Source: an uncultured Acidobacteriota bacterium
GTDB taxonomy: Bacteria; Acidobacteriota; Terriglobia; Terriglobales; Acidobacteriaceae
Length of the DNA: 64,000 bases
Assembly: GCA_963712365.1 (NCBI GenBank)
Contig: CAVQHO010000001.1
Location: 32,608-96,607 of the forward strand
Direction of reading: 5' to 3'
The notes beneath the pieces were generated by a model that worked only from the letters and a program-made list of their open reading frames with translations, was not told the origin of the DNA and did no database searches. The position numbers were made by a program, and so were the translations under genes. This document shows, piece by piece, positions 54,822 through 64,000 of this stretch (within the stretch, counting starts at the first letter, position 1; every line of letters starts with the position of its first letter).

Positions 54822-54837
54822 TGTGACCGCGCTCACA
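54822..54837. promoter_or_regulatory. CRP-type palindrome TGTGACCGCGCTCACA
   Basis: Perfect TGTGA-N6-TCACA in the divergent region between aroF and the Qrc-like operon. Confidence 0.45.
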
Positions 54838-55085
54838 GTTGTGCGAGAGCGTAAGCACAAACGAAGCAGTTTTCGCACCGCACATAACCGTGCGTTCAGG
54901 ATCGACTATGCGCTTTGGGGGCGGGATGAAGTCGCCAGGTGGAAGTGTTGGAATCGCCTACAGAGTTCGTTGGGAAAACCAACACGAGTACGCGTCTCTT
55001 CGCCGCAAGCTGTTGAGCTCACATGATGGCCATCGGCGTGCATTTCACCTGGTAGATGAGTTCCATCGAACAGGAGGTCATCGCG

Positions 55086-55382
55086 ATGGCCGGAGAAAAT
55101 TGGACGATGTGGCTGAATATTACAAACCTTGTACTTGGAATCGTCACCGTTGCTGCGCTTCTCATTGTGTTCTTCGCAGTGGGTTGGGATCTCTTGGCGA
55201 AGAAGTTTGGCCACGCCCAAACTGCGTCGGTATTGGGAAATATCGACGGTGAGTTGCGGGCACTCCTAAATGGCGGGACACACAGTTTTCGAGTCCCTGA
55301 ACTTGGGCTAACCATGGCGGACGGAGGCGAAAAAATTGAGCTCTCCGAAGATGGCAAATCCCCAAAGAAATCGCAGGAGTAA
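55086..55382 (+). CDS. Small single-pass membrane protein, first gene of the Qrc-like operon
   Basis: ATG at 55086 lies 8 nt after AGGAGG. TM helix WLNITNLVLGIVTVAALLIVFFAVGW. Confidence 0.55.
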   Translation: MAGENWTMWLNITNLVLGIVTVAALLIVFFAVGWDLLAKKFGHAQTASVLGNIDGELRALLNGGTHSFRVPELGLTMADGGEKIELSEDGKSPKKSQE

Positions 55383-55385
55383 GTT

Positions 55386-56231
55386 ATGGCCTGCCCACTG
55401 CTGCGGGAAGGTAAGGCGCGGTATTGCCATGCGGCCCCGGTTCGCAAGCTGATACTCAGCGGGCCTGGCGCCACTAACGGCGGGTTGTGCGATTCTCCGC
55501 AGTACCGCAGCTGTGAATTGGCTGCAAAAGATGCGGAGGCGCTTGATCGCTGTCCAGGGCTGGAGGAGATACGCGTACAGTACTGCGGGGTCTCGCCCGT
55601 GCCGCAATTCATTCCGTTCAGCGATTCCCAATTGTCAGGATGCACGAGCGACAACTACCGTTATTGCGATTCCTACTTGCATCTGTCGCAACCTCACGTC
55701 ACAAAGCCGCCTGCGACGCTTCTCTACTCTCCAAATCATTTCTGGCTGGATGCGGAGGAGTCGGGACTGTGTCACATCGGCGTCGATGCATTCGTCGCCG
55801 ATATCGCGGGTCAGGTCGACGGCGTAACGTTCGTCACGGCTCGCGGGACGCACTGCCCCGCCCTGGCGCTAACGATAAACGGCGTCGAATGGCCGATGAG
55901 CTTCCCGAATCCGATGATGATTCAAAGAGTGAATGGGCGCTTGCGCAGCGATCCCGCCCGATTGACCCTGGATCCGTACGGAACAGGATGGTTGTTCGAA
56001 GGCTGGGAAGTTCCGGGCCGAACGCGGACGGGCTTGCTTCGATCGCCGCAGGCAGATCTCTGGCAGGCCAATGAGCGCGAACGACTGAATCAAGAAATTC
56101 ACGACAGGCACGCTCCCGGATGTGATGGTGGAACCCCGGTCAAGGGTGTAGCGCAATTACTCGAGCGCCAGCACCTGGTCTGTCTGTTCCAGCATTTTTT
56201 CTCAAGAACGGACTGGACGGCGGAAAAATGA
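55386..56231 (+). CDS. Cys-rich protein with glycine-cleavage H-protein-like domain (no lipoyl-Lys evident)
   Basis: Duplicated N-terminal module CP.L.E....YC...P...(I)........C.S..Y..C at residues 3-43 and 56-94. Then YSPNHFWLDAEESGLCHIGVDAFVADIAGQVDGVTF...DPYGTGWLFE resembles the GcvH fold. No signal peptide. Confidence 0.7.
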   Translation: MACPLLREGKARYCHAAPVRKLILSGPGATNGGLCDSPQYRSCELAAKDAEALDRCPGLEEIRVQYCGVSPVPQFIPFSDSQLSGCTSDNYRYCDSYLHLSQPHVTKPPATLLYSPNHFWLDAEESGLCHIGVDAFVADIAGQVDGVTFVTARGTHCPALALTINGVEWPMSFPNPMMIQRVNGRLRSDPARLTLDPYGTGWLFEGWEVPGRTRTGLLRSPQADLWQANERERLNQEIHDRHAPGCDGGTPVKGVAQLLERQHLVCLFQHFFSRTDWTAEK

Positions 56232-56818
56232 AGATTCATCGCAACCTGATCTTCTTCACGTTGGGAGTGGCCACCGCATTATTTGTGGGCTGGTTTCTAT
56301 TTCCGCGACTTCTTTACGTGAAGAAAAATCAGCCTTTCGATTTCCTTCACAAAACGCATGCAGACAAGTCAGGTCTGAGCGACTGCAGTGAATGTCACAC
56401 CATTCACGAAGATGGAAGTTTCTCTGGCCTGCCTCCGACCGAAAAATGCGCTGGTTGCCATTCCGATCGGCTGGGCGAAAGCAAGGCCGAAGCGTTGTTA
56501 GTAAACGACTTCGTCAAACCCGGTCATGAGACTCCATGGCTGGTCTATTCAAAGCAGCCGACGAATGTCTGGTTCTCGCACGCGATTCATGTCAAACGGG
56601 CAAAGCTTGCGTGCTCGGAATGTCATTCCAGCTACGGGGACAAAGACGAAGTTCGAATTTACGAGGTCAACCGGATTAGCGGATACAGTCGGGATATTTG
56701 GGGACACTCGATATCGCGACTGCGGCGTGCGCAGCACGACGGCATGAAGATGACCGACTGTGAGGCATGCCATTCGCGTCACCACGTGGAAACAGGCTGC
56801 CTCGGTTGCCATCAATGA
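56228..56818 (+). CDS. qrcA: Membrane-anchored pentaheme cytochrome c3 family protein (QrcA/ActA-like)
   Basis: N-terminal TM helix. Five CxxCH motifs (CSECH, CAGCH, CSECH, CEACH, CLGCH). ATGA overlap with the upstream gene. Confidence 0.75.
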   Translation: MKIHRNLIFFTLGVATALFVGWFLFPRLLYVKKNQPFDFLHKTHADKSGLSDCSECHTIHEDGSFSGLPPTEKCAGCHSDRLGESKAEALLVNDFVKPGHETPWLVYSKQPTNVWFSHAIHVKRAKLACSECHSSYGDKDEVRIYEVNRISGYSRDIWGHSISRLRRAQHDGMKMTDCEACHSRHHVETGCLGCHQ

Positions 56819-56828
56819 AAGGTCGAAG

Positions 56829-58499
56829 ATGAAGTTCAGTCGGCGGGATCTTCTGTTATGGGGTGCAGGGGCCGCGGTAGGCGCCGTGGCCACTCCAGTG
56901 CCATGGAAGGTATTGGACGATGTTTCGATCTGGAGCCAGAACTGGCCGTGGATTCCGCAGCCGCCCCGCGGACCGGTGGAAGTGAAAGCGTCGTTCTGCT
57001 CATTGTGTCCGAACGGATGCGGGCTGCGCGTGAAGATGTCATCCGGCTACGCAGTGGGTGTTGCGGGGATGTCGACGCATTCAGTCAGCCGAGGGGTGTT
57101 GTGCCCTCTCGGATACGCCGCCCATCAACTCAATTGGCATCCGCGCCGACTCAAGACTGTGAAGCATCGCGGGATGAGTTCATCGTGGGGCGAGGCGCAA
57201 TCAGCGTTTGTGAAGGCCTGCAGCGAGGGCGCGATCATGGTCATCGACGGCTATCCCGGGAGAGCAGCTTCCTCGGTATTGCAGTCGTTTGTAGAAAAGC
57301 TGCATGGCTCCTACCGCGCCCTGCCCAATTCGGAAGTACGAACCCTCTTGCCTTACGAAAAATGGATCGGGGGTTCCGCTCATTCGCTTGGCTATGATCT
57401 CGAAAACGCACGAACCGTCGTCAGCTTTGGAGTTCCCTTGCTTGATGGATGGGGCGTCCCGGGTCGGTTTCCCTGGCTCTGGGCCGAAGGTGGCACGGGC
57501 GGCCGCGATGCAAAGTTGCGGCTCATACAAGTCGATGCTTCGATGTCGCGGACAGCCGCTCGTTCCTGGCGATGGGTATCGATCAAGGAAGGATCGGAGT
57601 CGGCTCTAGCAGCGGGATTAGCCAAGGCACTGATTCAACAGAAATTAATACCGGCTCACGATGAATTCGCGTTGCCTACCCTTCCTGATGTCGCGCAACA
57701 AACAGGCTTGCCGGTAGATGCCATTCTGGACCTGGCGCGAGTTGTCGTAGAACGAGGTCCTGTGGTGGGGATTGCTCGCGATGAAAATCCTGCGGTTGCG
57801 GCTTTGAATGTGGTGCTTGGATCTGTCGGCGTACCCGGTGGAATCGTACGTAGATCAACAGCTGAGGTGACTCGTCCTCAGACCCAACAGACGCGTCCGA
57901 AAGTTCGAGCTGTCTTGCTAGATGGAAGCGTCCCTTGGGATTTCACGATTGATACCGATGCTGAAATCTTTCGCTTTGCCGCCTGGGATGGCGGCGCGAA
58001 AACAGCGGACTGGCTGCTTCCAGCCCCAGGCTTTCTCGAAGAAGTGTCCGACATACCCGCGGCGCCTACAGCCTCAGTGGACACGTACACGATCGCAGCG
58101 AGTCTGACAAAGCCTGCTTTCGAAGTGCGCAGTGCTGCCAAGTTTCTGACTGGCGTGGAGCCCAACCTAACTCCAATCGAGGAGATCATCCATGCTCGCT
58201 GCCAGAATCTTTTTAGGCGGCGAGCAGGCGCTGTTCACAGAGAAAAAGCGATTCCGATCTCAGAGTTCGCCTCTGCACAGAAATTAGAAGAGGCGCTATC
58301 AAACGGCGCCGTGTGGGTCAACGACGGCAAGGCCGGTGCCAAGATCGAATGCCGACTACGAGAATGGCCCACCTCCACTTTAGTCTCGCAACAGGACGAT
58401 TGGGCAGCGTCGTGGCAACCGCCAGTTCTCCCTCCGCTGGCGTCAAAGCTCTTCGTCGAGTCGAAATTAAGAAACTCTCCCAACCGGAGTAACACATGA
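56829..58499 (+). CDS. qrcB: Tat-exported molybdopterin-oxidoreductase-like subunit (QrcB-like, probably cofactor-less)
   Basis: MKFSRRDLLLWGAGAAVGAVATPVPWKVLDDVSIWSQNWPWIPQPPRG and FS0 motif CSLCPNGCG. At 556 aa it is shorter than catalytic PsrA-type subunits. Confidence 0.75.
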   Translation: MKFSRRDLLLWGAGAAVGAVATPVPWKVLDDVSIWSQNWPWIPQPPRGPVEVKASFCSLCPNGCGLRVKMSSGYAVGVAGMSTHSVSRGVLCPLGYAAHQLNWHPRRLKTVKHRGMSSSWGEAQSAFVKACSEGAIMVIDGYPGRAASSVLQSFVEKLHGSYRALPNSEVRTLLPYEKWIGGSAHSLGYDLENARTVVSFGVPLLDGWGVPGRFPWLWAEGGTGGRDAKLRLIQVDASMSRTAARSWRWVSIKEGSESALAAGLAKALIQQKLIPAHDEFALPTLPDVAQQTGLPVDAILDLARVVVERGPVVGIARDENPAVAALNVVLGSVGVPGGIVRRSTAEVTRPQTQQTRPKVRAVLLDGSVPWDFTIDTDAEIFRFAAWDGGAKTADWLLPAPGFLEEVSDIPAAPTASVDTYTIAASLTKPAFEVRSAAKFLTGVEPNLTPIEEIIHARCQNLFRRRAGAVHREKAIPISEFASAQKLEEALSNGAVWVNDGKAGAKIECRLREWPTSTLVSQQDDWAASWQPPVLPPLASKLFVESKLRNSPNRSNT

Positions 58500-59239
58500 G
58501 AGCGCGGTACGGCATGGTTATCGATCTCGACCGATGCACCGGATGCGGCGCATGCATGGTCGCATGTACAGCTGAAAACAACGTTCCGTCCCTTCCACAA
58601 GCGAGTGCGCGAACCGGCATCACTCCGGTGCTCGTGCGCCGAGTGTCCAACGGAATGGAAGGCATCGCGAAGCGAGAAATATTTATTCCGATCATGTGCG
58701 CCCACTGCGAACACGAAACTCCGTGCGTGAAGGTGTGTCCGCAACAAGCTGTGGAAGTGGACAAGGCAACAGGGATTGTCATGCAGATGCCGCAGCGCTG
58801 CCTTGGATGCCGCTATTGCATGACTGCGTGTCCTTATCACGCCCGCTACTACAACTGGTGGGATCCTTCATGGCCGGCAGGGATGGAGAGTAGCCTGAAT
58901 CCGGGAGTGGCGGTGAGGATGCGGGGCGTAGTCGAAAAGTGCAACCTTTGTCACGCACGCTTCCACGCCGCTAAAGAAAAAGCGGCTGCGGCTGGCCGAT
59001 CGGAGATCGATCCAGCCGATTACATCCCGGCATGCGTGGAATCCTGCCCGACAGGCGCAATCCGATTTGGAAATCTCGCGGACACGCAAGATCCCGTCTC
59101 AGAAGAAGTGAAGGCGCCCGAGACGTTTCAATTACTTGCGCGTCTTGGCACGGCGCCGAAGGTTTACTACAAGTCGAGGGAACCATGGGTGAGAAATCTG
59201 GCGGAACCCGGGCGCCAGTCGGAGGCTCAGCATGGCTAG
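58496..59239 (+). CDS. qrcC: 4Fe-4S ferredoxin-type subunit (QrcC/PsrB-like)
   Basis: YGMVIDLDRCTGCGACMVAC, CAHCEHETPCVKVCP, CLGCRYCMTACPY, CNLC...CVESCPTGA. Confidence 0.85.
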   Translation: MRARYGMVIDLDRCTGCGACMVACTAENNVPSLPQASARTGITPVLVRRVSNGMEGIAKREIFIPIMCAHCEHETPCVKVCPQQAVEVDKATGIVMQMPQRCLGCRYCMTACPYHARYYNWWDPSWPAGMESSLNPGVAVRMRGVVEKCNLCHARFHAAKEKAAAAGRSEIDPADYIPACVESCPTGAIRFGNLADTQDPVSEEVKAPETFQLLARLGTAPKVYYKSREPWVRNLAEPGRQSEAQHG

Positions 59240-60493
59240 CACGGTTCTCACTGACGCTCGATGGATCAGTCGCGGGGAAGAAAGGACGTCGCTCACGCGA
59301 TTCCTGCTGTGGCTCGCACCCTGGGCGTTGCTGCTGGTCCTTGGCGTCTATGCGGCCGGTCTTTGCCTCTACTTCGGCCTCAACCAAACGAACATGGACA
59401 ACCGCTTTGCCTTCGGGCTCTGGATCTTTCTAGATCTCGGCATCATTGCACTGGGAGCAGGAGCGTTCTTTACCGGATTGCTCGTTTATATTCTGAAACG
59501 AACGGAATTGAAGCCGATCTTGAACACGGCCGTCGTCGTTGGGTTTATCTGCTATAGCGGTGCGGTCGGCATACTGATGATCGATGTGGGGCAACCGTTA
59601 AGGGCGTGGTTCACATTCTGGCATCCGAACACACACTCCATGCTCACGGAGGTCACGTTCTGCATTTCGTGTTACCTGCTGGTGCTTAGCCTCGAGTACA
59701 TCCCCTTGCTGTTGCGCAACCGAAACCTAAGCAAGATACCCTCATTCCTTGTCTTCGAACATCAACTGCACAAACTAGTTCCCGTTCTCGCCGGCGTTGG
59801 AACGCTACTCTCCTTCTTCCATCAGGGATCGCTTGGTGGACTGTACGGAGTGCTGCGAGGACGGCCATTTGCCTTCAGGGACGGCATCCTGATCTGGCCG
59901 TCAACGTTTTTTCTGTTCATCCTTTCAGCAATTGCCTCGGGCCCGAGCTTTCTGATGTTGATCGCCGCCACCGCCGAGAAGCTCACGGGCGGAAACTCGT
60001 GCCGAGCCAGTTATTTCGACGCCTCGGATTTATATCGGGAACTCTGCTTGGTGTTTACGTCGCGGCAAAATCGATTGATACGCTGATCTGGCTTAACTAC
60101 ACATCCCCAGCTGAAGGTTTCGAACCCTGGCAGTTCTACTCTTATCGTCCCTTCGGTACGCCGATTCTGTTCGTTGAGATTGTGCTTCTAGGTTTGGTGC
60201 CGGCGTTCCTGTTGACGTTCCGAAAGACAGCCAATCGGAAGGGTCTGCTTCTTACGGGCGCGGCATTGGCTTGCGTAGGGATATTGCTGAACAGATTCGT
60301 CCTAACGATTCAGACCCTAGCGCTGCCGACGCTTCCATTCGATGAGTTCCTGAAGTACACGCCGAGTTGGCAGGAAGTCGCCAGCTTCGGTGGAGTCGTG
60401 GCATACGGGGTGATTGTTTACTCACTGTCGTATCGATATTTGCCGCTTTTCGCGAACTCAAAGGGAGAGGACACGCATGTTTCCGGGAATTGA
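59232..60493 (+). pseudogene. qrcD: NrfD/PsrC family quinone-interacting membrane subunit (QrcD-like), one frame disruption
   Basis: ORFs 59232..60086 and 59999..60493 join at ..AEKLTG/(R)KLVPSQLFRRLGFISG, consistent with one missing C in ACGGGCGGAAAC near 59990. Multiple TM helices. Confidence 0.8.
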
Positions 60494-61301
60494 CGGATTT
60501 CACTGGGCGTTCGGCCATGTTCTTTTTCTAACGCTGTTCTTCGCCGTGGTTCTAACGATTTCCGCAACCATCGCTTCAGCGGTAATGAAGACCGTCAACG
60601 ATTTTCGGAGCCACAAAGCCGCTGAGCTGTGCTGGAAATCGCATTTCTCAAAGGTGCCCGATTCCAGCAAGCGATGCCGCCATGAACTGGCTGGAAGAGT
60701 CATCTCGAGAACCTGCGACAACAACTTTGACTGCCGAACCTGCAAGAACTACTCGCACTTTGCGGTACTGCCAGCATCAGGCAATGCACATCCGTGTGGG
60801 CTGGATTTCCCAGACGACCGCCTGTATCACCGAGGTCATACTTGGGTGAAAACGGTTGAGGATGGAAATTTGCTTGTCGGGCTAGACAGCCTGGCAGAGT
60901 GCCTAATCGGCGATCCTGATTCTGTCCGGATGCCAGATTTAGGCGACGAAATCGAGGCGAATCAGACCGCGTGGCGCATCCGGAAGAACGGGGCCGAGAT
61001 CTCTGTTCGCGCGCCGATCGAAGGAACGATCCTGGAGGTTGGCGGACCCGGCAAGGGCTGGTATCTCAAGATGCGCCCACGATCAGATCTGAACGACCGC
61101 GTGGCATTGCGCCACCTTCTCCGTGGACCGGAAGTGAGAGGATGGATCTCCCGAGAAATGGAGCGCCTGCAGATCCAGCTGCGAACACCTGACAGCGCTC
61201 CTGCGCTTGCAGATGGCGGGGTGCTGCTGCCCCACCTGATGGATTCAATCCTAGAGGCAGACTGGGACGCAGTACTATCCGACACGTTCCTCACTGATTG
61301 A
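60477..61301 (+). CDS. Membrane-anchored Cys-rich protein with second GcvH-like domain
   Basis: ATG at 60477 follows AGGGAGAGG and overlaps the qrcD end by 17 nt. TM helix FGHVLFLTLFFAVVLTISATIASAV. Cys cluster CWKS...CRHE...CDNNFDCRTC. Then YHRGHTWVKTVEDGNLLVGLDSLAECLIG...APIEGTILEV...GKGWYLKM. Confidence 0.7.
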   Translation: MFPGIDGFHWAFGHVLFLTLFFAVVLTISATIASAVMKTVNDFRSHKAAELCWKSHFSKVPDSSKRCRHELAGRVISRTCDNNFDCRTCKNYSHFAVLPASGNAHPCGLDFPDDRLYHRGHTWVKTVEDGNLLVGLDSLAECLIGDPDSVRMPDLGDEIEANQTAWRIRKNGAEISVRAPIEGTILEVGGPGKGWYLKMRPRSDLNDRVALRHLLRGPEVRGWISREMERLQIQLRTPDSAPALADGGVLLPHLMDSILEADWDAVLSDTFLTD

Positions 61302-61318: not shown

Positions 61319-62675
61319 TCAGTGCGAGATTTCGTAACGCTTGAGTTTGTCGTAGAGCGTCGAACGGTCAATCCCTAACGCCATGGAAGCTTCCTTTACG
61401 TTGCCGTGCTTTCTTTCCAGGGCTGCCAGGATTGCGCGCCGTTCCAATTCATTCAGCGAAACCTCTGGAACCTCCCACTCCTCCGCCTGACCTGGCACTG
61501 GCTGCATCCACGAAAAGTCCTGTTCCTCAAGAGTGCCGTTGTGACAGGTCACGATGGCTCTCTCGATTACATTTTCCAGTTCACGAACATTTCCGGGCCA
61601 GTCATGACTCAACAGCAATTTCAGGGCTCCGCTGGAGATTCCGGTGATATCTTTTCCGAGCTCTGTTGAAATGCGCTGGACAAAATGCTCGGCAAGCAGG
61701 GGAATATCTTCACGGCGTTCGCGTAAGGCAGGAAGTCGAATCTCGATGACGTTCAGCCGGTAGAAAAGATCTTCGCGAAATCTTCCGTGCTGCACTTCTT
61801 CCGCCAGATTTTTGTTTGTCGCCGCGATGACTCGAACGTCGACCTCGACTTCTTGCGTTCCGCCCACACGATAGAAGCGACGCTCCTGAAGAACGCGCAA
61901 GAGATCGGCCTGTAGCTTGGGAGAAATGTCTCCAATCTCATCGAGGAAGATCGTGCCTCCTGCCGCTGACTCAAACTTGCCTTTTGCTTGACTAGTCGCC
62001 CCGGTGAAAGCGCCTTTCTCGTAGCCGAACAGTTCACTTTCCAAAAAGTGTCTCAGTCAGGGCAGCGCAACTCACCGCAATAAATGGTTTGTCGGCACGG
62101 TTGCCGGAGAAATGAACTGCACGCGCGACGAGTTCCTTGCCCGTACCACTCTCGCCGCGAATGAGGACGGTGCTGCTCAGGCTGGCGACTTCCTGCGTTA
62201 GGGAAAGGATCTCGCCCATCCGCGGATTTTTGGTGATGATGTCGTGATGGCGGTATTGTCGCGTGAGCTTCTTGCGAAGAATTGCATTTTCACTTTGCAG
62301 CTTTTTCAGCTTGAGAATCCGTGAGACTAGCATCGAGATCTCCTGCGGATTGCAGGGTTTTACGATGTATTCCTGGGCGCCCTCTTTCATTGCTTGGATC
62401 GCGGTATCGACGGTTGCGTATGCAGTGATGATGATGATGGAAGCTTCGGGACGAAGGCGATGGATTTCCATCATGGTTTCGATTCCGTCCATGCCCCCGG
62501 GCATTTTGAGGTCAACGAAGCAAATGGCATAGTCTGTGGAGCGGGCTTGCTCGAGCGCCTTTTGGCCGTTCGCCGCGGTATCGACTCGGTAGCCATCTTC
62601 GCGCAACCACGCAGCCATCGACTCGCACATTACGTCTTCGTCGTCGACGACAAGAATCGGCCAGTTCTTTTTCAT
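61319..62675 (-). pseudogene. Sigma54-dependent response regulator (NtrC family), one frame disruption
   Basis: ORF 62034..62675 holds the receiver domain (ILVVDDE...FVDLKMPG) and Walker A (GESGTGKE). ORF 61319..62044 holds [15 protein letters not shown], the rest of the AAA+ domain and a Fis-type HTH. They join if one A is removed from the A5 run (CCAAAAAGTG) near 62040. Confidence 0.85.
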
Positions 62676-63221
62676 ATTCCTGCCTCCCCCGAAAATCGTT
62701 GGACCAGATGCGATCCACAGCGGTCACAGAATCTCTCTTCCTTTGCTATCCACAAGTTCCACGTGGGTGGCCAGGCTCATTGCGCAACTGGGCTCGGAAC
62801 AGTGGACCAATCCGAATGTGTGCCCGAGTTCGTGCAGCGCTTCTTTGACTGTGCGCTCGCGCAACAAACTTTCCTGTGCGGAAAGACCATAGAACTCCTG
62901 GCGCAGTCGGCACAGAGATATCAGGGCGATAGGCCCGTCGAACTGTGCCTGTCCAAACAAGAAAGTGAGCATCGGGATCGCAAGGTCCACATCCGTAACT
63001 CCGAGGACACGAAAGGCGTCTCGTGGGGCAAGTTGTGCAAGCATTTTCATGATTTCGACCGACTGGTATTGTCCTCGTTTCGGGTCATAGGCAGAGTCTG
63101 GAATGTTTAAAGGAGGAAGCCGTCGTATCGGCAGCGGAAACCATTCGGCCGCCGCCTTTTCGATCCACTCCAGCACGCTCGGCAAAACGGAACCCACAGG
63201 CACGAGGCAAAGGTCGTTCAC
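62672..63221 (-). pseudogene. Archaemetzincin (peptidase M54) family zinc protease, one frame disruption near the 3' end
   Basis: HELGHTFGLVHCSEPSCAM fits HEXXHXXGX3CX4CXM. The expected CXXC (FCDRC) follows in the +1 frame after about 62740. That frame ends in a TGA overlapping the NtrC ATG (ATGA). Confidence 0.7.
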
Positions 63222-63248
63222 ACGGCTTGCACCTGCATTTCTTTGGAA

Positions 63249-64000
63249 TCATTTGCCCCGCTTCGTGACCTTCAGGGGAAGACTCACAGTAAAAGTCGTA
63301 CCTTCATTCAGTCGGCTTGCCACTTCAACTTCTCCCTCATGTGCCTTCACAATCCCGTACAGCACTGCCAGACCAAGACCGACTCCTTTCCCTTCAACCT
63401 TTGTGGTGAAGAATGGATCAAAGATCTTGGAGACGTTTTCGGGTGCGATGCCTTCCCCGTTATCCTGAACCGAGAGTTCTACGACACCTTCCTCAGCGAT
63501 CAGACGAGTTCGGATCGTAAGCGTGCCGCCGCCTCGCGATTGCATGGCCTGCGCGCCATTGAGGACGAGATTCAAAATGACTTGCTGAATCTGCGAGGAA
63601 TCGCATTCCACTAGACGGAAGGTCTGGCCTGAAGTCCAGCACGACCTCGGCGCTAATCAACTTCAATTTGTGGTCTGCCAACCCGATGGTTGTCTGCACC
63701 AGTTTGTTGAGATCGGCGGGTGCACGCTGCGGCTTCGAGCGTCGGGAAAACGCAAGAAGGTCGGAAACGATGCGTCCGACGCGCGCGGTCTCAGCCGAGA
63801 TCATACCGAGATATTTACGGAATTCTGCTTCGCGGCCGGCGGGATAGTTGCCGCTCACCATCAGTCGTTCGAGAAGCATGGAGAGATTCAGAACTCCCGA
63901 GATCGGATTATTGATTTCGTGGGCCACGCTGGCCGCAAGTTGTCCGAGCGTCGCCAGCCGATCGGATTGCACCAGCTTTTTCTGCGCCGCTTTCAGTTGC
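63249..64000 (-). pseudogene. Sensor histidine kinase (partial, runs off the window), one frame disruption
   Basis: H-box SDRLATLGQLAASVAHEINNP (ORF 63493..63972, open to the window edge). HATPase_c region N-box QVILNLVLNGAQAM, DNGEGI and GKGVGLGLAV in ORF 63249..63611. The frame changes near 63615. Confidence 0.8.

What the first reader, a model, noticed from the sequence alone, without database searches (positions are those of the whole stretch)
55386..56231. Duplicated CP..YC..C..Y..C module fused to an H-protein-like barrel that lacks the lipoyl lysine
Residues 3-43 and 56-94 repeat the same spacing of four cysteines (CPLLREGKARYCHAAPVRKLI...GLCDSPQYRSC and CPGLEEIRVQYCGVSPVPQFIP...GCTSDNYRYC). 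That suggests two metal or Fe-S binding knuckles. The C-terminal part aligns by eye to GcvH (Y..H.W...........GI.D.A...LG....V). At the position of the lipoylated ESVKA motif, however, the sequence reads LTINGVEWPM with no lysine. The protein has no signal peptide, so it would sit on the cytoplasmic face of the membrane complex.
Basis: partly seen in the sequence, partly recalled or inferred. Interest (0 to 1): 0.6.

Follow-up and report, generated by a model that had tools for sequence, protein, structure and literature searches.

The report
Lipoate-free H-protein look-alike on Qrc complex
This gene encodes a cytoplasmic protein with a duplicated eight-cysteine domain of no recognised fold fused to a glycine-cleavage H-protein barrel that cannot carry lipoate, and it is an almost invariable, undescribed companion of a Qrc-type quinone reductase operon in soil and sediment bacteria.

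Summary
ORF 55386-56231 (+) encodes a 281-aa protein, here called X.

- **Cysteine domain.** X has two homologous Cys4 modules (C-x10-C-x19/20-C-x7-C). Module 1 against module 2 gives hhalign E 2e-16. All eight Cys are invariant in 68 diverse relatives.
- **Barrel.** A true GcvH-fold barrel follows (Z 14.6 to pea H-protein). At its hairpin tip, N165 sits where the lipoyl lysine should be, and that column holds no Lys in any of the 68 relatives.
- **Not the real GcvH.** X scores 20-27 bits against equivalog cut-offs of about 116. The real gcvH lies elsewhere in the genome, next to gcvT/gcvP.
- **Gene order.** X is the second gene of a conserved order: small TM protein, X, QrcA, QrcB, QrcC, QrcD, then a TM-anchored paralogue Y. 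QrcA follows X in 82 of 82 related loci. These come from Acidobacteriota, Bacteroidota, Ignavibacteriales and Eisenbacteria.
- **Regulation.** A sigma-54 regulator, an archaemetzincin and a sensor kinase usually lie alongside. A positionally conserved -24/-12 element precedes the operon.
- **Shared motif.** X, Y and the small TM protein share an (A)DGG motif.

X is most likely a metal-binding cytoplasmic accessory or regulatory subunit of this Qrc-type complex. Metal binding and physical association are inferred, not shown.

I found no paper describing it. Earlier reports of this scan saw lysine-less GcvH-fold partners of NrfCD modules on other DNA. The Cys8-fused, Qrc-linked form is a new variant of that theme.

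The parts
55027..55042 (+). Sigma-54-type -24/-12 element (TGGCC-N-...-GTGCA, GG-N10-GC spacing) ahead of the operon
   Evidence: Seen in the sequence. A TGG(C/T)-N8-(T/G)TGC(A/T) element sits at a similar distance, mostly 45-70 nt before the small-TM match, in most related loci across phyla. It differs from the strict consensus at 3 positions, so the 2-mismatch scan missed it.
55086..55382 (+). Small single-TM protein with a cytoplasmic tail carrying the near-invariant motif P.LG.TMADGGE
   Evidence: An AGGAGG Shine-Dalgarno precedes the ATG at 55086. A homologue lies directly upstream of X in at least 74 of 83 loci. Motif conservation comes from an alignment of 79 homologues. No Pfam family matches.
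55386..56231 (+). X: the protein of the finding (281 aa)
55392..55514 (+). Cys4 module 1 (residues 3-43; C3, C14, C35, C43)
   Evidence: The four Cys are invariant with fixed spacing. Module 1 is homologous to module 2.
55551..55667 (+). Cys4 module 2 (residues 56-94; C56, C67, C86, C94)
   Evidence: A repeat HMM finds no other copy in the 5.5-Mb genome.
55704..56087 (+). GcvH-fold barrel (residues 107-234) with N165 at the hairpin tip in place of the lipoyl Lys
56088..56228 (+). C-terminal helical extension with the near-invariant D247-G248-G249 motif, shared with Y
   Evidence: The X C-part against the Y C-part gives hhalign probability 98.9%, E 3.5e-17 over 154 columns, including this region.
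56228..56818 (+). QrcA-like membrane-anchored multihaem cytochrome c (five CxxCH motifs)
   Evidence: NCBIfam QrcA 208 bits, cut-off 180. It lies directly downstream of X in 82 of 82 loci.
56829..58499 (+). QrcB-like, Tat-exported (SRRDLL), shortened molybdopterin-family subunit
   Evidence: It scores 211-282 bits against a cut-off of 440, and only the N-terminal part of the profile (about the first half to three quarters) is matched.
58496..59239 (+). QrcC-like four-cluster Fe-S subunit
   Evidence: 317 bits to the QrcC model, cut-off 400.
59232..60493 (+). QrcD-like NrfD-family membrane subunit, split here by a frameshift near 59990-60086
   Evidence: Relatives carry one ORF of 414-420 aa that scores 559-565 bits against a cut-off of 570.
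60477..61301 (+). Y: a TM-anchored paralogue. It has an N-out TM helix, one Cys4 motif (C-x12-C-x5-C-x2-C), a GcvH-fold barrel without an invariant Lys, and an ADGG motif.
   Evidence: Present downstream in 63 of 66 loci that are long enough.
61319..63221 (-). NtrC-type sigma-54 response regulator (frameshifted here) and M54 archaemetzincin; the sensor kinase follows to the window end
   Evidence: Regulator and protease lie within 8 kb in 32 of 46 full-length loci.

Best explanation
X is a lipoate-free, H-protein-fold adaptor of the cytoplasm. It carries two Cys4 centres (Zn or Fe-S, undecided). With the TM-anchored paralogue Y and the small TM protein, it probably forms a cytoplasmic cap on the NrfD-type subunit of a Qrc-type menaquinone reductase, whose redox subunits (QrcA, QrcB, QrcC) face the periplasm.

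Shown:
- the H-protein fold and the family-wide loss of the lipoyl lysine;
- the internal duplication and eight invariant Cys;
- homology of the barrel-plus-helix-plus-DGG part of X with Y;
- strict co-occurrence and translational coupling with qrcABCD;
- the conserved sigma-54-type element and the neighbouring regulator, protease and kinase.

Inferred:
- X, Y and the small TM tail are cytoplasmic and dock on QrcD, perhaps through their shared (A)DGG motif.
- The Cys centres bind metal and report the cytoplasmic redox or metal state.
- The cap tunes the complex rather than carrying a substrate.

The most concrete target is the proton path from the cytoplasm that Desulfovibrio QrcD uses for quinone reduction (PMC6303296).
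For: - Fold and missing Lys.
- Not a functional GcvH: equivalog scores of 20-27 bits against cut-offs of 116-117. A canonical 129-aa gcvH with ESVKA lies beside gcvT/gcvP elsewhere in the genome.
- Duplication and invariant Cys.
- X/Y homology including the DGG region. ADGG in the small TM tail.
- Synteny: QrcA follows X in 82 of 82 loci. QrcB, C and D follow in 68 of 69. Y follows in 63 of 66. The small TM protein lies upstream in at least 74 of 83. The loci come from four named groups.
- Qrc identity of the neighbours.
- Periplasmic orientation of the redox subunits: Tat motif in QrcB and haem c motifs with an anchor in QrcA.
- No signal peptide or TM segment in X. K/R residues lie after the TM helices of Y and of the small protein.
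- Canonical Qrc is described as QrcA plus QrcBCD with its substrate- and quinone-binding sites periplasmic, and it takes up protons from the cytoplasm through QrcD (PMC6303296).
- A third lysine-less TM GcvH-like gene in this genome lies beside another NrfC/NrfD pair with a kinase and a sigma-54 regulator. The pairing of this fold with NrfD modules is therefore general.
Against: - No direct evidence of binding to QrcD or to Y.
- No evidence for metal.
- The N-terminal domain folded alone reaches only pLDDT 75.8.
- Eisenbacteria loci have X and QrcABCD but neither Y nor the small TM protein, so a fixed three-part cap is not universal.
- The related loci are not independent, since many are close relatives.
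- Transcription of the Y homologue was zero, and that of the qrc genes low, in the one metatranscriptome found (PMC10564751 supplement).
Confidence: 0.5

Rival explanations
1. X and Y are signalling adaptors rather than complex subunits. They relay the state of the quinone module to the neighbouring kinase and sigma-54 regulator, or they are substrates of the archaemetzincin encoded between kinase and regulator. The Cys8 domain would be the sensory input and the H-fold barrel the output.
For: The regulator, M54 protease and kinase triad travels with the operon across phyla. A conserved -24/-12 element precedes the operon. Earlier unchecked notes of this scan report the same lysine-less fold fused to receiver domains in sister systems.
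Against: The triad lies within 8 kb in only 32 of 46 full-length loci. X is translationally coupled to structural genes. The receiver fusions were not checked here.
Confidence: 0.2
2. X is a cytoplasmic electron carrier. Its Cys4 sites hold Fe-S clusters that, with the cluster of Y, link a cytoplasmic donor or acceptor to quinone in QrcD. The complex would then be a transmembrane redox link like Dsr, Hmc or Tmc.
For: There are eight invariant Cys in X and four in Y. Each X module begins with a near-invariant Cys-Pro. Cys clusters are present in the Qrc-linked paralogues but absent from the third paralogue in this genome.
Against: The operon has no haem b or other cofactor-bearing membrane subunit. 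NrfD-type subunits hold no cofactors, and the known quinone site is on the periplasmic side (PMC6303296). No ferredoxin-type motif and no Fe-S Pfam family was detected.
Confidence: 0.1
3. X is a maturation or escort factor. It would hold QrcB/QrcC before Tat export or help cofactor insertion, and it would not be part of the finished complex.
For: It is a cytoplasmic protein encoded at the head of an operon whose QrcB has a Tat signal and whose QrcC has none.
Against: Known escort proteins of this enzyme family (TorD/DmsD/NarJ type; from my own knowledge) are all-helical and unrelated. The paralogue Y is membrane-anchored. Three proteins sharing one motif fit a structure better than a chaperone does.
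Confidence: 0.1
4. X is a working swinging-arm carrier that bears lipoate or another prosthetic group on a residue other than the canonical lysine.
For: Most structural motifs of GcvH are kept: the H-x-W motif, G-x-D, and P-Y-G-x-G-W-L.
Against: No Lys is conserved anywhere in the hairpin, and the tip residue is freely variable. The genome has its own GcvH. Equivalog scores lie far below the cut-offs.
Confidence: 0.03

Closest known systems
Glycine cleavage system H-protein (GcvH; Pfam PF01597, TIGR00527; e.g. PDB 1dxm, 3ab9)
   Same: The barrel-sandwich fold matches over residues 107-234 (Z 14.6, TM 0.84). The hairpin and most structural motifs are retained.
   Different: - No lipoyl lysine, here or in the family.
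- A 105-residue Cys8 domain in front and a helical DGG extension behind.
- Encoded in a respiratory operon, not with gcvT/gcvP.
- Far below the equivalog cut-offs.
QrcABCD menaquinone reductase of Desulfovibrio (PMC6303296)
   Same: The four neighbouring genes are the nearest relatives of QrcA-D. QrcA scores over its cut-off. QrcD reaches 559-565 bits against 570 in intact relatives. Gene order and periplasmic orientation are the same.
   Different: - Canonical Qrc is described as a four-subunit complex (QrcA plus QrcBCD) with its substrate- and quinone-binding sites periplasmic; here three extra genes (small TM, X, Y) are conserved.
- QrcB is shortened.
- The hosts are mostly not known sulfate reducers, and no dsrA was found in this genome, which is 78% complete.
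GcvH-L of Streptococcus pyogenes (PDB 5a35)
   Same: It is also a divergent H-fold protein used outside glycine cleavage (Z 10.6).
   Different: GcvH-L keeps its lysine and is lipoylated and ADP-ribosylated (PMC4518038, listed; content from my own knowledge). X has no lysine and a different genomic context.
Lysine-less GcvH-fold partners of NrfC/NrfD modules, seen earlier in this scan (unpublished AI notes)
   Same: They share the H-fold without lysine, a gene next to an NrfD-family subunit, and a sigma-54 two-component system plus metalloprotease alongside. This genome holds such a locus too.
   Different: Those proteins are TM-anchored or receiver-fused. X is soluble and carries the duplicated Cys4 domain, and its module is the Qrc type with QrcA and QrcB.

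Membership tests
GcvH (glycine cleavage H-protein) | Barrel-sandwich hybrid H-protein fold | tested here: met
   Foldseek to 3ab9: E 3.8e-7, TM by target 0.84. VIA-align to 1dxm_A: Z 14.6, rmsd 2.1, 127 residues aligned.
GcvH (glycine cleavage H-protein) | Lipoyl-lysine at the hairpin tip (ESVKA) | tested here: not met
   The Lys aligns with N165. That column holds no Lys in 68 relatives.
GcvH (glycine cleavage H-protein) | Score above the curated family cut-offs | tested here: not met
   Pfam domain model just passes at 22.6 against 22.2. The NCBIfam subfamily (NF002270) and equivalog (TIGR00527) models give 26.9 and 20.1 bits against cut-offs of 117 and 115.85.
GcvH (glycine cleavage H-protein) | Encoded with gcvT/gcvP | tested here: not met
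   X lies in the qrc-type operon. The canonical gcvH with gcvT and gcvP is at G000:C1:20960-21313.
QrcABCD complex (as the context of X) | Four subunits QrcA-D that match the curated models | tested here: inconclusive
   QrcA passes at 208-215 bits against 180. QrcD reaches 559-565 against 570, and QrcC 316-363 against 400. QrcB reaches only 211-282 against 440.
QrcABCD complex (as the context of X) | Four-subunit composition (QrcA plus QrcBCD) with QrcABC on the periplasmic side, as described for Desulfovibrio | tested here: not met
   Three extra conserved genes are predicted to be cytoplasmic or N-out/C-in, against the description in PMC6303296. Whether Desulfobacterota qrc loci carry X was not tested.
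Known Zn-ribbon or Fe-S binding domains | Match of the Cys8 domain to a described family or solved fold | tested here: inconclusive
   No Pfam hit for the protein or consistently across 68 members. Best PDB match Z 2.7. Foldseek gave nothing at E <= 0.001. Atlas matches are only fragments of the same family.
Known Zn-ribbon or Fe-S binding domains | Four thiolates converging on one site | not testable with these tools
   Model coordinates are not exposed, so no S-S distances could be measured.
Lysine-less GcvH-fold partners of NrfD modules (unnamed; this scan) | H-fold without Lys, a post-barrel helix with a DGG motif, and a gene beside an NrfD-family subunit and a sigma-54 two-component system | tested here: met
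   The same features occur in the second locus of this genome.
Lysine-less GcvH-fold partners of NrfD modules (unnamed; this scan) | N-terminal membrane anchor | tested here: not met
   X has no hydrophobic segment. Y and the third paralogue do have one.

The most novel reading that the evidence does not exclude
The lost lipoyl arm has been replaced by protein-bound redox centres. In this reading X, with Y, is a cytoplasmic redox module. Its Cys clusters (Fe-S or dithiol pairs) would exchange electrons or reducing equivalents with quinone through the cofactor-less NrfD subunit. Alternatively they would redox-gate its cytoplasmic proton channel. Either way a Qrc-type complex would gain a cytoplasmic control or coupling site of a kind not known in any NrfD-family enzyme.
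Probability: 0.1. Interest if true: 0.85.

Novelty: new variant of a known kind. Interest (0 to 1): 0.55.

Why it matters
Qrc and the other NrfD-family complexes are treated as periplasm-facing modules whose membrane subunit has no cofactor and no cytoplasmic partner. Here a strictly conserved set of three cytoplasm-facing proteins accompanies such a complex. Two of them reuse the lipoyl-carrier fold without lipoate. This points to an unrecognised layer of control or coupling at the cytoplasmic face, where Desulfovibrio QrcD takes up its protons.

There is also a practical side. Hundreds of these genes are auto-annotated as 'glycine cleavage system H lipoate-binding protein'. That annotation is wrong and can distort metabolic reconstructions of peat and soil Acidobacteriota.

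The Cys8 domain matched no described family or solved fold in the searches run here.

Tried and rejected
- **Binding of X to Y.** Complex prediction with X and the cytoplasmic part of Y gave score 0.01, verdict 'no answer'. I do not count it either way.
- **Fold of the Cys8 domain alone.** The best solved match is Z 2.7. Foldseek found no match at E <= 0.001. The Atlas shape search returned only fragments of the same family, and everything else was at TM 0.41 or below. The Atlas feature search gave no usable hit.
- **Pfam.** No family for the Cys8 part, the C-terminal tail or the Cys region of Y. No family recurs among the 68 members.
- **X Cys module against the Y Cys region.** No similarity.
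- **Other copies of the Cys module.** None in this genome.
- **Longer fused forms.** None found, which is weak evidence. One 489-aa NUDIX-X protein (P0162) is a single representative and may be a gene-call artefact.
- **Strict sigma-54 consensus.** With up to 2 mismatches it finds nothing upstream of the operon, and its count over the window is below the chance expectation. The element was found only by requiring the GG-N10-GC spacing and checking its position in relatives.
- **Literature.** Searches pairing Qrc or NrfD with GcvH or glycine cleavage, and archaemetzincin with sigma-54, found nothing. The Venceslau 2010 Qrc paper is not held.
- **Alignment A1 as a locus query.** It was too diverse, so a 10-sequence subset was used instead.
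- **Not tested.** Whether Desulfobacterota qrc loci carry X; I had no handle for that phylum.

Full report
**The gene.** ORF 55386-56231 (+) encodes a 281-aa protein, called X here. An AGGAG lies six bases before its ATG. The stop of the preceding small ORF lies three bases upstream, and the stop of X overlaps the ATG of the next gene (ATGA). X is full length. More than a hundred relatives of 69-83% identity are almost all exactly 281 aa and begin the same way. An exhaustive search of 1.84 billion representatives found 134 clusters at E <= 1e-30.

**The cysteine modules.** I aligned 68 diverse relatives (31-79% identity to X, mean column identity 35%).
- The invariant columns include C3, C14, C35, C43, C56, C67, C86 and C94.
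- The spacing is fixed: 10, 19-20, 7; a variable linker; then 10, 18-19, 7.
- Profiles of module 1 and module 2 align at hhalign probability 98.7%, E 2.1e-16 over 43 columns. Both share the consensus C-P-F-L-x-E...C...R-C...C. The module is therefore a true internal duplication.
- Neither the module nor the whole 105-residue domain matches any Pfam family, for X or consistently for the 68 members.
- Folded alone, the domain reaches pLDDT 75.8. It finds nothing in the PDB: best Z 2.7, and no Foldseek hit at E <= 0.001. In the ESM Atlas it finds only fragments of its own family.
- A repeat HMM finds no second copy in the 5.5-Mb genome.
- Whether each module forms a Cys4 metal site could not be checked, because model coordinates are not exposed.

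**The barrel.**
- Pfam GCV_H just passes: 22.6 bits against a cut-off of 22.2, residues 113-204.
- phmmer finds E. coli H-protein at E 1.5e-4.
- The full-length AlphaFold model is confident (pLDDT 91.9, pTM 0.86).
- Residues 107-234 superpose on H-proteins: Foldseek TM 0.84 by target, and Z 14.6, rmsd 2.1 over 127 residues to pea H-protein 1dxm_A.
- The lipoyl hairpin is kept as strands 159-164 and 167-172. At its tip the lysine of ESVKA pairs with N165.
- Across the family that column is G, R, N, H, S and others, never K. No neighbouring column has more than one K.
- The NCBIfam gcvH subfamily (NF002270) and equivalog (TIGR00527) models give 26.9 and 20.1 bits against cut-offs of 117 and 115.85.
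- The genome has an ordinary 129-aa gcvH with ESVKA next to gcvT and gcvP, about 11 kb upstream of the window.

X is therefore an H-fold protein that cannot be a lipoyl carrier.

**The surroundings.** The order in the window is:
1. a small single-TM protein (55086-55382);
2. X;
3. a QrcA-like multihaem cytochrome c (208 bits, over its cut-off of 180);
4. a Tat-signalled, shortened QrcB-like protein (twin-arginine motif SRRDLL);
5. a QrcC-like Fe-S protein;
6. a QrcD-like NrfD subunit, split here by a frameshift;
7. a second GcvH-like protein, Y.

In intact relatives QrcD scores 559-565 bits against a cut-off of 570, and QrcC 316-363 against 400. This is the Qrc branch of the NrfD-family complexes. 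On the other strand follow an NtrC-type sigma-54 regulator, an M54 archaemetzincin and a histidine kinase.

**Conservation of the arrangement.** I collected 84 related loci, from Acidobacteriota (Terriglobia including Sulfotelmatobacter, Bryobacterales, Thermoanaerobaculia), Bacteroidota, Ignavibacteriales and Eisenbacteria.
- QrcA follows X in 82 of 82 loci with enough sequence.
- QrcB, C and D follow in 68 of 69.
- Y follows in 63 of 66.
- The small TM gene precedes X in at least 74 of 83.
- Regulator and protease lie within 8 kb in 32 of 46 full-length loci.

The loci are not independent, since many are close relatives, but the spread over several phyla is real. The Eisenbacteria loci have X-QrcABCD and the regulatory triad, but neither Y nor the small protein. 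A sample of 301 Acidobacteriota genomes held full-length X in only three. Shorter barrel-plus-DGG relatives occurred in 42.

**The paralogue Y and a shared motif.** Y starts at 60477 with a conserved M-F-P-G-x-D-G-F-H-W. It then has one TM helix followed by K/R residues (N-out, C-in). Four Cys are invariant, spaced C-x12-C-x5-C-x2-C. A GcvH-like barrel follows, whose hairpin position is K, R or T, so it is not a conserved lysine. Last comes an invariant A-D-G-G.
- The C-terminal 154 columns of X and Y are homologous (probability 98.9%, E 3.5e-17), including the helix after the barrel and the DGG segment.
- Their Cys regions are unrelated.
- The small TM protein has the same N-out/C-in charge pattern and a near-invariant tail motif, P-x-L-G-x-T-M-A-D-G-G-E.

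All three accessory proteins thus present an (A)DGG segment on the predicted cytoplasmic side.

A third lysine-less, TM-anchored barrel-plus-DGG protein is encoded elsewhere in this genome. It lies beside another NrfC/NrfD pair, a kinase and a sigma-54 regulator. That paralogue has no Cys cluster.

**Regulation.** A GG-N10-GC element (TGGCC...GTGCA, 55027-55042) lies about 45 nt before the small-TM start. Close matches to TGGCAC-N5-TTGCA sit at a similar distance in most related loci across phyla. Together with the adjacent NtrC-type regulator, this supports sigma-54-dependent expression. It is an inference from sequence.

**How it most likely works.** Published work describes Desulfovibrio Qrc as QrcA plus QrcBCD, with QrcABC on the periplasmic side. 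[quoted passage not shown]
- The three extra proteins here are predicted to face the cytoplasm, so the only part of the complex they can touch is the cytoplasmic face of QrcD.
- My preferred reading (about 0.5) is a cytoplasmic cap in which the H-fold barrels serve as protein-binding scaffolds. The Cys centres of X and Y would bind metal and sense the cytoplasmic redox or metal state, and so tune the complex.
- Gating of the proton entry is the most concrete version of this reading. I give that specific step about 0.15.
- Rivals are a signalling adaptor tied to the kinase, protease and regulator (0.2), a cytoplasmic Fe-S electron module (0.1), a maturation factor (0.1), and a carrier modified on another residue (0.03). 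The Fe-S module is weakened by the lack of any cofactor-bearing membrane subunit.

**Known or new.**
- I found no paper that pairs Qrc or NrfD complexes with GcvH-like proteins.
- A 2021 survey found QrcD only in Deltaproteobacteria (PMC8076601).
- The one study that covers a carrier is MAG CO124, which is locus L049 here. It names qrcABCD and reports transcription under anoxia. Its annotation table lists the X and Y homologues simply as 'Glycine cleavage H-protein' and the small protein as hypothetical, without comment (PMC10564751).
- Source annotations elsewhere read 'hypothetical protein' or 'glycine cleavage system H lipoate-binding protein'.
- Earlier reports of this scan, on other DNA, describe lysine-less GcvH-fold partners of NrfC/NrfD modules with a sigma-54 two-component system and a metalloprotease. 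I confirmed that theme within this genome.
- Specific to this finding are the soluble form with the duplicated Cys4 domain and its strict link to the Qrc-type module with QrcA and QrcB.

I class it as a new variant of a known kind. No dsrA was found in this genome, which is 78% complete, and most carriers are not known sulfate reducers. The physiological donor of the complex is therefore open.

Noticed in passing
window 59985-60090: qrcD is split into two frames (59232-60086 and 59999-60493). Relatives carry one ORF of 414-420 aa in a single frame. The regulator downstream (61319-62675) is also split. This is probably an assembly error rather than gene decay, but that is undecided.
   Followed up: partly
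window 55086-55382: The small single-TM protein has a near-invariant cytoplasmic motif P.LG.TMADGGE. The same (A)DGG segment is invariant in Y and nearly so in X, and occurs in a third paralogue. This looks like a shared docking motif of unknown target.
   Followed up: partly
window 55027-55042: A sigma-54-type -24/-12 element that is positionally conserved in front of the operon in most related loci.
   Followed up: partly
G000:C10:829060-829800 (L090:8064-8804, minus strand): A third lysine-less, TM-anchored GcvH-fold protein with a QDGG motif and no Cys cluster. It is divergent from an NrfC-like gene, an NrfD gene split into two frames, a histidine kinase and a sigma-54 regulator.
   Followed up: partly
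window 56829-58499: The QrcB-like subunit is short (about 556 aa from the Tat start). It matches only the first ~365 of 695 positions of the QrcB model. The Eisenbacteria homologue is 744 aa and matches ~506 positions.
   Followed up: no
window 61319-64000, minus strand: An M54 archaemetzincin sits between the sensor kinase and the NtrC-type regulator. The triad recurs next to the operon in Acidobacteriota, Bacteroidota, Ignavibacteriales and Eisenbacteria, downstream or divergently upstream.
   Followed up: partly
window 54822-54837: A perfect TGTGA-N6-TCACA palindrome lies in the intergenic region between the DAHP synthase gene and the qrc-type operon.
   Followed up: no
P0162 (489 aa, metagenomic representative): A NUDIX domain (residues 9-126) precedes a full X homologue. 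It is a single representative and may be a gene-call artefact.
   Followed up: no
L035 and L036 (contig CAVZYB010000009.1): One acidobacterial contig carries two copies of the whole small-TM-X-QrcABCD-Y operon in opposite orientation, about 15 kb apart.
   Followed up: no
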